Shown piece after piece: positions 63,130 to 63,960 of a stretch of DNA of 64,000 nt. A model generated the notes under the pieces. The model had not been told where the DNA came from. It worked only from the letters and a program-made list of their open reading frames with translations, and searched no databases. The DNA comes from Escherichia coli (GTDB lineage: Bacteria; Pseudomonadota; Gammaproteobacteria; Enterobacterales; Enterobacteriaceae). Position numbers and translations under genes: made by a program. The first letter of the stretch is position 1. The number at the start of each line of letters is the position of its first letter. The stretch is taken from NCBI RefSeq assembly GCF_003991155.1, contig NZ_CP031293.1; one strand, given 5' to 3'.

Positions 63130-63960
63130 ACCGGACTCCTCCTGCGATCCCTTCTGATACTGTCATCAGCATTACGTCATCCTCCGTCATGTCCGCCACA
63201 TCCGTGGAAGTAGGGATAACTTCATTCCCGTCCGGGCCAAAGCGGACACCTCCGGCAAGCCCTGCCGCTTTCTGCATCAGCACATCATCTTCAGGCTCTT
63301 CGTCAGCCTCGCGCCGGTTCAGCAGACTGAAATCCAGCGGATGCATATCCGGATCGCTGAAAAACAGGCTGAGCACGGTGTACGTCAGCCCGGAAAAGTG
63401 CATATCCAGCAGAACATCATGAAAATAATGGGTACTGTAAAAGCGGTGCCAGTCGGCATACTCCGTGGATGACATCCCGGCAAGCATGGCACGCCAGTCG
63501 GGTCGCCCCATCTCACGCGCCAGTTTCAGGGCAAAACTCAGCTCACCGTCGAACGCTTTCCCGCAGAAACAGGCTCTGCAGGCCCGGAGTCCTCTGCCTG
63601 TTCAGGGGCATCATTCACCACAAACTCATACATACCGGACAGCCGGTACACCACGTTTTCAGCATGAGAAATTGCCTCCGTGGGCCAGGTGGTAAGCACT
63701 TCCTGCTCAATCTGTTTAACGGCTTCATTCATGGAAGGCAGCTTTGTCTTCTGCGGATGGTTATGCCACAGGGACATCGCCACCACAAAAGCACCGGTTC
63801 TGATGGCGTCTTCCACAGTAAACTTCCGGTTGCTGTCTGACTCCGCCTGTTCTGCCTGCCGTTTCATCAGGGCGAGATGCTCAATACGCTGCAGGGCTGA
63901 CAGTTCAGAAAGCGTGACGGTCACACCGTTATGTTCAAATGATTCGGTTTTCAGGAACAT
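63122..63960 (-). CDS. GT: G-T tail assembly chaperone fusion made by programmed -1 ribosomal frameshift
   Basis: T-frame ORF (track 63122..63511) continues open upstream into G; slippery heptamer G GGA AAG lies in the G frame at 63556..63562. Confidence 0.75.
63538..63960 (-). CDS. G: Tail assembly chaperone G
   Basis: 140-aa ORF MFLKTESFEHNGVTVTLSELSALQRIEHLALMKRQ matching lambda gpG as recalled. Confidence 0.9.
   Translation of the reverse strand: MFLKTESFEHNGVTVTLSELSALQRIEHLALMKRQAEQAESDSNRKFTVEDAIRTGAFVVAMSLWHNHPQKTKLPSMNEAVKQIEQEVLTTWPTEAISHAENVVYRLSGMYEFVVNDAPEQAEDSGPAEPVSAGKRSTVS
63556..63562 (-). other. Slippery heptanucleotide G GGA AAG for the G to G-T -1 frameshift
   Basis: Plus strand reads ctttccc; its reverse complement is in the G zero frame, 6 codons before the G stop. 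Confidence 0.75.

What the first reader, a model, noticed from the sequence alone, without database searches (positions are those of the whole stretch)
63540..63575. Conserved G to G-T programmed -1 frameshift site
The heptamer G GGA AAG lies in the G frame six codons before the G stop, and the -1 frame is open into the T ORF. This matches the lambda tail assembly chaperone frameshift and supports a functional tail morphogenesis module.
Basis: partly seen in the sequence, partly recalled or inferred. Interest (0 to 1): 0.3.

Follow-up and report, generated by a model that had tools for sequence, protein, structure and literature searches.

The report
Lambda-type G/GT tail chaperone frameshift site
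This is the well-known ribosomal -1 frameshift site of phage lambda's tail-assembly chaperone genes G and T, present intact in a lambda-like prophage of E. coli; it is real, conserved and ordinary.

Summary
GGGAAAG occupies 63562..63556 (-) in the X XXY YYZ phase of gene G (63960..63538, 140 aa). Its AAG codon is six codons before the TGA stop. The -1 frame is open from 63601 to 63122, and slipping gives a 279-aa G-T fusion. The V'-G-T-H' stretch is 97.9% identical to lambda, and the fusion differs from lambda gpGT at 9 of 279 residues. It matches the G and T family models, and G and T lie between the major tail gene V and the tape-measure gene H. The heptamer is invariant in 70 distinct related sequences, and codon-position variability switches from the G frame to the T frame at the heptamer, 44 nt before the first T-frame ATG. 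More distant relatives carry A AAA AAG or G GAA AAG at the same position. No conserved stimulator was found. One small difference from lambda is a C instead of T directly 3' of the heptamer. This removes lambda's nominal GTG "T start", and RefSeq therefore annotates T from a downstream ATG, with no joined product.

The parts
63976..64000 (-). 3' end of the major tail protein gene V (cut by the window end; stop TAA at 63978..63976)
   Evidence: Read. Aligns to the lambda V CDS end, with the same 15-nt gap to the G start. Annotated 'phage tail protein' in the identical genome.
63967..63972 (-). Shine-Dalgarno-like GGAGAG, 6 nt before the G start codon
   Evidence: Read directly from the sequence; its function is inferred.
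63538..63960 (-). Gene G, tail assembly chaperone gpG, 140 aa, the product of standard decoding
   Evidence: ORF. Pfam PF06894 Phage_TAC_2 at 4.4e-58. TIGR01674 at 211 bits against a cut-off of 74.
63556..63562 (-). Slippery heptamer G GGA AAG (X XXY YYZ in the G frame), the -1 frameshift site
   Evidence: Invariant in 70/70 distinct relatives. Same site as in lambda.
63555..63555 (-). Base immediately 3' of the heptamer: C here, T in lambda. It is a pyrimidine in all relatives examined. In the -1 frame it changes GTG (Val) to GCG (Ala) and so removes lambda's nominal GTG start of T.
   Evidence: C in 5 and T in 65 of 70 sequences. The literature on 3' context is.
63563..63601 (-). Part of the G/T overlap upstream of the slip site. 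The -1 frame is open here but shows no T-frame constraint.
63122..63556 (-). T-frame segment decoded after the slip (144 codons plus stop). Together with G codons 1-135 it gives the 279-aa gpGT fusion.
   Evidence: fusion translation. PF06223 and TIGR01715 at 185 bits against a cut-off of 77. T-frame wobble pattern from 63555 onward.
63509..63511 (-). First ATG in the T frame. RefSeq uses it as the start of a separate 129-aa T CDS. It is probably not a real start.
   Evidence: There is no SD-like sequence upstream (CTGGCGCGTGAG ATG). T-frame constraint begins 44 nt upstream of it.
60568..63129 (-). Gene H, tape measure protein, 853 aa. Its start overlaps the T stop (ATGGCTGA), as in lambda.
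   Evidence: PF06791 and PF09718. Lambda annotation.
54717..60571 (-). Downstream tail genes M, L, K, I and J, all intact ORFs
   Evidence: Pfam on M and J. Annotation of the identical genome.

Best explanation
This is the lambda-type programmed -1 ribosomal frameshift that produces two tail assembly chaperones from one mRNA. Most ribosomes read G to its TGA stop and make gpG (140 aa). A small fraction slips back one base, with tRNA-Gly on GGA and tRNA-Lys on AAG re-pairing to GGG and AAA. Those ribosomes continue in the T frame and make gpGT (279 aa; junction ...PVSAGK|AFDGEL...). In lambda the fraction is about 4% (gpG:gpGT about 30:1); it has not been measured for this allele. By homology with lambda, the G portions of both proteins bind the tape measure protein H. 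The T portion recruits the major tail protein V so that the tail tube polymerises around H. Neither protein ends up in the virion. Shown here: the site, its phase, the open frame, homology, gene order, conservation, and the frame switch of selective constraint. Inferred from lambda experiments: that slipping occurs, its rate, and the chaperone roles. Slipping probably depends on the heptamer and its immediate 3' pyrimidine, without a dedicated RNA structure.
For: The heptamer is in phase, six codons before the stop, and the -1 frame is open to the T stop, giving a 279-aa fusion. The DNA is 97.9% identical to lambda V'-G-T-H', and the fusion differs from lambda gpGT at 9 of 279 residues. Pfam and NCBIfam equivalog matches to G and T are far above their cut-offs. 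G and T lie between V and H. In 70 distinct sequences of 74-98% identity the heptamer is invariant. Variable sites by G-frame codon position 1/2/3 are 69/57/100 from the G start to the heptamer, 4/7/0 from the heptamer to the T-frame ATG, and 43/85/49 in the rest of T (chi-square P=0.005, Fisher P=0.001). Residues after the slip are conserved in the T frame ([VA]F[DEV]GEL) but vary freely in the G frame (C/R/S/H/P/Y...). More distant relatives have other shift-prone motifs at the same position: A AAA AAG in VT1-Sakai, and G GAA AAG in HK225, mEp213 and LLS, annotated as a -1 PRF site in LLS. From the literature: lambda gpG/gpGT are made by -1 frameshifting at G_GGA_AAG, with about 96% of ribosomes staying in frame, a 30:1 ratio needed for tail assembly, and sensitivity to tRNA-Lys U34 modification (PMC5009743; PMC3296357; PMC7618472). 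G_GGA_AAG is among the most shift-prone heptamers in E. coli.
Against: No protein or ribosome data exist for this locus; the event is inferred from homology. The 70 sequences are closely related and not independent, so the P values are rough. In the last ~70 nt before the heptamer all three codon positions vary about equally, so the switch is seen as the onset of the T-frame pattern rather than as a sharp end of a strong G-frame pattern. RefSeq annotates G and T as separate genes in an identical genome. The base 3' of the heptamer differs from lambda, so the rate here may not equal lambda's.
Confidence: 0.95

Rival explanations
1. T is a separate gene translated on its own from ATG 63511 (129 aa), for example by re-initiation after the G stop, as RefSeq annotates it. 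On this reading the heptamer is incidental.
For: PGAP annotates a stand-alone 'phage tail assembly protein T' CDS from this ATG in the 100%-identical genome NZ_CP029747. The ATG lies 27 nt after the G stop.
Against: There is no Shine-Dalgarno-like sequence before the ATG. The 44 nt between the heptamer and the ATG already show the T-frame pattern of variation, with 0/4/7 variable sites at T-frame positions 1/2/3. The peptide [VA]F[DEV]GELxFALxLARE encoded there is conserved. The TIGR01715 match begins at fusion residue 140, upstream of Met151. The heptamer's three synonymous sites are invariant. Lambda experiments attribute T-domain expression to the frameshift.
Confidence: 0.03
2. The frame change is made by RNA polymerase slippage (loss of one nucleotide from the transcript) rather than by the ribosome.
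For: Transcriptional slippage exists in bacteria and phages and is used for some tail chaperone pairs; this rests on general knowledge from the review read, not on anything tested here.
Against: The longest homopolymer runs at the site are G3 and A3. From established knowledge, productive slippage usually needs runs several bases longer. In lambda the frameshift rate responds to tRNA-Lys anticodon modification, which points to the ribosome.
Confidence: 0.01
3. The site is intact but idle: the prophage is cryptic or never induced, so the frameshift signal is a recently inherited relic and not evidence of a working tail module in this host.
For: The prophage sits at the argU/DLP12 position, where E. 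coli K-12 carries a defective remnant (my own knowledge). In the identical genome several tail-fibre genes downstream of J are annotated as fragments or pseudogenes. The window does not contain the head or regulatory genes.
Against: All tail ORFs from G to J are intact and lambda-sized. The identical genome also has an integrase, an S24 repressor, O/P-like replication genes, Q, lysis genes and a full head gene set by annotation. The 'fragmented' side tail fibre is in fact one uninterrupted 792-aa ORF.
Confidence: 0.15

Closest known systems
Bacteriophage lambda G/GT programmed -1 ribosomal frameshift (Levin, Hendrix & Casjens 1993; Xu, Hendrix & Duda 2013, 2014)
   Same: Same heptamer G GGA AAG, same phase, same six-codon distance to a TGA stop, same 61-nt overlap, same product lengths (140 and 279 aa), and the same flanking genes V and H. 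DNA is 97.9% identical, and the fusion is 270/279 identical.
   Different: Nine amino-acid substitutions. The base 3' of the heptamer is C rather than T, so the junction residue is Ala rather than Val, gpG ends KRSTVS rather than KCSTVS, and lambda's nominal GTG 'T start' is absent. It lies in a chromosomal prophage at the argU/DLP12 site rather than in lambda itself.
Conserved tail assembly chaperone frameshift of long-tailed dsDNA phages (Xu, Hendrix & Duda 2004)
   Same: Two overlapping ORFs between the major tail and tape-measure genes, with a -1 slip near the end of the first ORF giving a minor extended product.
   Different: This is the founding (lambda) subtype itself, not a divergent member. 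Other members use different heptamers, and relatives seen here use A AAA AAG or G GAA AAG. According to the review, some members use other shift types.
E. coli dnaX -1 frameshift (A AAA AAG)
   Same: It relies on the shift-prone pairing of the single E. coli tRNA-Lys (mnm5s2UUU) with AAG.
   Different: From established knowledge, dnaX has an upstream SD-like stimulator and a downstream hairpin and shifts at about 50%. Here there is no SD-like element 6-17 nt upstream and no significant downstream fold (z = -1.44), which fits lambda's low rate of about 4%.

Membership tests
Lambda-type G/GT tail assembly chaperone -1 PRF | Two overlapping ORFs located between the major tail protein gene and the tape measure gene | tested here: met
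   V' (63976-64000), G (63960..63538), T frame (63601..63122) and H (63129..60568), all on the minus strand.
Lambda-type G/GT tail assembly chaperone -1 PRF | [quoted passage not shown] | tested here: met
   G GGA AAG at 63562..63556, six codons before the stop. It is the only in-phase heptamer in the overlap.
Lambda-type G/GT tail assembly chaperone -1 PRF | The -1 frame is open from the slip site to the end of the downstream ORF | tested here: met
   No stop from 63601 to 63122; the fusion is 279 aa.
Lambda-type G/GT tail assembly chaperone -1 PRF | Sequence homology of both halves to gpG and gpT | tested here: met
   TIGR01674 at 211 bits (cut-off 74) and TIGR01715 at 185 bits (cut-off 77). 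PF06894 and PF06223. 270/279 identical to lambda gpGT.
Lambda-type G/GT tail assembly chaperone -1 PRF | Evolutionary conservation of the slip site, and the downstream frame under selection starting at the site | tested here: met
   Heptamer invariant in 70/70 sequences. Variable sites shift from the G-frame third position to the T-frame third position at the heptamer. Alternative shifty motifs occur at the same position in distant relatives.
Lambda-type G/GT tail assembly chaperone -1 PRF | The fusion protein is actually produced at a low, fixed ratio (about 1:30 in lambda) | not testable with these tools
   Known for lambda only. It needs a Western blot, mass spectrometry or ribosome profiling of this allele.
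Lambda-type G/GT tail assembly chaperone -1 PRF | Both products are required for tail assembly and absent from virions | not testable with these tools
   Taken from the literature on lambda.
Stimulated bacterial -1 PRF signals (dnaX / IS3 / IS911 type) | An SD-like element 6-17 nt upstream and/or a stable hairpin or pseudoknot a few nt downstream | tested here: not met
   The 17 nt upstream (GCAGAGCCTGTTTCTGC) contain no GGAG, GAGG or AGGA. The 100 nt downstream fold at -38.7 kcal/mol with z = -1.44, and 20 of 200 shuffles fold as well.
Ribosome-collision-stimulated frameshifting at a slow UGA (Smith et al. 2019) | The slippery heptad lies 8-10 codons (A site to A site) upstream of the stall codon | tested here: not met
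   The spacing here is 6 codons. The reported peak is at 8-10 codons, and the 5-codon spacer was the low reference point.

The most novel reading that the evidence does not exclude
The natural T-to-C polymorphism at 63555, directly 3' of the heptamer, changes the frameshift rate and hence the gpG:gpGT ratio relative to lambda. It is found in 5 of 70 distinct sequences, and this position is always a pyrimidine. That would make the 3'-adjacent base a natural tuning knob of tail assembly in lambdoid prophages. The 3' context of X_XXA_AAG motifs is reported to change frameshifting up to about 12-fold in E. coli, and the sources seen here do not settle whether C or U is more shift-prone (against my memory of the Bertrand 2002 abstract). 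Equally, the strict pyrimidine could only reflect a Val/Ala requirement in the T frame.
Probability: 0.25. Interest if true: 0.2.

Novelty: already known. Interest (0 to 1): 0.06.

Why it matters
It matters little for discovery, because this is the textbook example of programmed frameshifting in a dsDNA phage, found in a prophage nearly identical to lambda. It has some practical value. It confirms that the tail-chaperone step of this prophage is genetically intact. It also shows that RefSeq's annotation of this widespread allele omits the real gpGT product and starts T at an ATG that is probably never used. Homologs of the region occur in 3,701 of 5,426 complete E. coli genomes. The codon-position frame-switch test used here is a simple way to validate such sites from sequence alone.

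Tried and rejected
1. Enrichment of the heptamer in the window: 9 copies against 6.8 expected, not significant, so the motif alone carries no weight.
2. A downstream stimulatory RNA structure: the 100 nt after the heptamer fold no better than shuffles (z = -1.44). No alignment-based fold was attempted, because coding constraint would confound it.
3. An upstream SD-like stimulator: none 6-17 nt upstream (read).
4. Ribosome-collision stimulation by the conserved TGA six codons downstream: rejected as the main explanation. The published optimum is 8-10 codons, and T-frame coding (F-D-G-E-L-S) already explains why the spacing and the TGA are conserved.
5. Independent T translation from ATG 63511: rejected (see rivals).
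6. Solved structures of gpG/gpGT relatives: none by sequence.
7. Rfam: no RNA family at the site; the only hit in the window is sok at 24207-24362.
8. Primary papers not held by the library: Xu 2013 (PMC3762263) and Bertrand 2002 (PMC1370227). Levin 1993 and Xu 2004 are cited only through reviews.
9. The body text of Maynard 2012 prints the slippery sequence as GGGTTTG, while its Table 1 gives GGGAAAG. I take the table as correct; it agrees with the lambda sequence.

Full report
**1. What is in the sequence**

The tail genes at the right end of the window are on the minus strand.
- The order on that strand is the 3' end of V (stop at 63978..63976), G (63960..63538, 140 aa), the T frame, H (63129..60568, 853 aa), then M, L, K, I and J (down to 54717).
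The plus strand there reads CTTTCCC.
- In the G frame the text is GCG GGA AAG CGT TCG ACG GTG AGC TGA. The heptamer is therefore in the X XXY YYZ phase, and its AAG codon is six codons before the stop.
- The -1 frame is open from 63601 to the T stop at 63124..63122, a 61-nt overlap with G. This is the only in-phase X XXY YYZ heptamer in that overlap.
- Reading G through Lys135 and then stepping back one base gives a 279-aa protein with the junction ...PVSAGK|AFDGELSFALKLAREM....

**2. Is it more than chance?**

The heptamer by itself is not. It occurs 9 times in the window against 6.8 +/- 2.6 expected. By simple arithmetic, some in-phase X XXY YYZ motif among about 20 codons would arise by chance roughly 8% of the time. 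What is not chance is the context and the conservation, set out in sections 3 and 4.

**3. Identity of the locus**

- Window 63100-64000 (-) is 97.9% identical to lambda NC_001416 9671-10571, which carries V, G, T and H.
- The fusion protein differs from lambda gpGT at 9 of 279 residues.
- The fusion matches Pfam Phage_TAC_2 (residues 1-125, 4.4e-58) and Phage_tail_T. It also matches the NCBIfam equivalogs TIGR01674 (211 bits, cut-off 74) and TIGR01715 (185 bits, cut-off 77).
- H matches the lambda tape-measure families, and M matches Phage_min_tail.
- The last 20.9 kb of the window (43100-64000) has zero mismatches to the chromosome of E. coli 2016C-3878 (NZ_CP029747).
- In that genome the prophage sits beside tRNA-Arg at the DLP12 position. 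By annotation it has an integrase, exo/bet/gam, an S24 repressor, O/P-like replication genes, Q, lysis genes, a full head set and the tail genes. It ends before ompT-envY-ybcH-nfrA.
- Homologs of the 901-nt query occur in 3,701 of 5,426 complete E. coli genomes.

**4. Comparative test of the frameshift**

I collected 70 distinct G-T DNA sequences of 74-98% identity: the window, phage records, and IMG/VR loci L012-L091.
- All seven bases of the heptamer are invariant in 70/70. This includes three G-frame third positions (GCG, GGA, AAG) that could change synonymously. Only 24% of G third positions upstream are invariant, so three in a row has P of about 0.014.
- Variable sites by G-frame codon position 1/2/3 are:
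  - 69/57/100 from the G start to the heptamer, the usual third-position excess;
  - 4/7/0 between the heptamer and the first T-frame ATG;
  - 43/85/49 in the rest of T.
- G-frame position 2 is T-frame position 3. The pattern expected of T-frame translation therefore begins at the heptamer, 44 nt before any ATG (chi-square P = 0.005; Fisher P = 0.001).
- At the protein level, the residues after the slip are conserved in the T frame ([VA]F[DEV]GEL[SNK]FAL[KR]LAREM) but vary freely in the G frame (C/R/S/H/P/Y, then S, then T/K/S/M...).
- Caveats: the sequences are related, so the P values are rough. In the last ~70 nt of G before the heptamer all three codon positions vary about equally, consistent with a relaxed linker-like C-terminus of gpG.
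- More distant relatives keep a shift-prone motif at exactly the same place, six codons before the stop, but with a different sequence: A AAA AAG in VT1-Sakai, and G GAA AAG in HK225, mEp213 and LLS. LLS annotates it as a -1 programmed frameshift site with a joined CDS.

**5. Mechanism**

From the literature on lambda:
- gpG is the product of standard decoding, and gpGT arises by a -1 shift at G_GGA_AAG.
- About 96% of ribosomes stay in frame, and the gpG:gpGT ratio of roughly 30:1 is needed for tail assembly.
- The rate responds to the mnm5s2U34 modification of tRNA-Lys.
- G_GGA_AAG is one of the most shift-prone heptamers in E. coli.

At this locus I found no sign of a dedicated stimulator.
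- The 100 nt downstream fold no better than shuffled sequence (z = -1.44).
- There is no SD-like element 6-17 nt upstream.
- Sharma et al. report about 0.3% shifting for the best V_VVA_AAG heptamers without stimulators, rising to about 3.7% with a favourable 3' context. That is close to lambda's natural rate.
- The most economical model is therefore the heptamer plus its immediate 3' context.
- The base after the heptamer is a pyrimidine in every relative examined: T in 65 and C in 5 of 70, and C or T in the distant relatives. This fits the stacking model, in which a 3' purine stabilises the AAG pairing and lowers slipping. It is equally explained by a Val/Ala requirement at the first T-frame residue.

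I also considered stimulation by ribosome collisions at the conserved, slowly decoded TGA. The published optimum is 8-10 codons between A sites, and the spacing here is 6. T-frame coding already explains the conservation, so I do not favour this idea.

**6. Differences from lambda, and annotation**

- The only change near the site is C for T at 63555. gpG ends KRSTVS instead of KCSTVS, and the junction residue of gpGT is Ala instead of Val.
- Lambda's formally annotated T start (GTG at 10115, the last base of the heptamer) becomes GCG.
- Probably for that reason, PGAP starts T at ATG 63511 (129 aa) in the identical genome and gives no joined G-T product.
- That ATG has no SD-like sequence and lies downstream of conserved T-frame codons, so the annotation is likely wrong in its details.
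- Public annotation of this pair is inconsistent. Lambda RefSeq and HK630 list the T part alone, whereas LLS has a joined CDS.

**7. Rivals**

- Independent translation of T: rejected on the frame-switch evidence (confidence 0.03).
- Transcriptional slippage: unlikely, with only G3 and A3 runs and a rate that depends on tRNA modification in lambda (confidence 0.01).
- The site is intact but the prophage is idle: cannot be excluded from sequence (confidence 0.15). This rival bears on the 'functional module' remark, not on what the site is.

**8. Verdict**

The feature is the already-known lambda G/GT frameshift in a lambdoid prophage that is widespread in E. coli. Interest is low. The only mildly open question is whether the natural C/T polymorphism next to the heptamer tunes the frameshift rate.

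Noticed in passing
window 63555 (-): The base directly 3' of the slippery heptamer is C where lambda has T. This position is a pyrimidine in all 70 distinct relatives (T 65, C 5) and in the more distant relatives. It could reflect the known 3'-context effect on X_XXA_AAG slipping, or only Val/Ala coding in the T frame.
   Followed up: partly
window 63122..63511 (-); L011 20490-20879: In a genome identical over this region, RefSeq/PGAP annotates T as a stand-alone 129-aa CDS from an ATG with no SD-like sequence, and gives no ribosomal-slippage join for gpGT. Lambda's own RefSeq record also lists T separately.
   Followed up: yes
window 51613..53991 (-): One uninterrupted 792-aa ORF has a prophage tail-fibre N-terminal domain (aa 5-134) and a 189-nt tandem repeat (2.3 copies, 85% match) at 53014-53444. 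The identical RefSeq genome splits the same DNA into two 'incomplete' pseudogene fragments plus a small CDS, so the side tail fibre may in fact be intact.
   Followed up: partly
window 24207..24362 (-): An Rfam gathering-level match to the sok antitoxin RNA (RF01794, 78.9 bits), indicating a chromosomal hok/sok-type toxin-antitoxin locus.
   Followed up: no
window 43100..64000; NZ_CP029747 966588-1012022 (L011, L092): The prophage occupies the tRNA-Arg (argU)/DLP12 position next to ompT-envY-nfrA. By annotation it looks like a complete lambdoid phage: int, exo/bet/gam, repressor, O/P, Q, lysis, iss/bor, head and tail genes. It may be a full-length counterpart of the defective DLP12 remnant of K-12. 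It also carries emrE, ybcK and rusA.
   Followed up: partly
phage record MW057783.1 (hit H24): A record named 'Campylobacter phage CJLB-4' (host Campylobacter jejuni, 48,361 bp) is 97.9% identical to the query at lambda-like coordinates, with lambda gene names. It looks like lambda DNA, possibly contamination or mislabelling.
   Followed up: no
window 50618..51322 (-): A 234-aa ORF downstream of the tail fibre carries a Peptidase_S74 (endosialidase chaperone) domain, typical of self-cleaving tail-fibre or spike C-termini.
   Followed up: no
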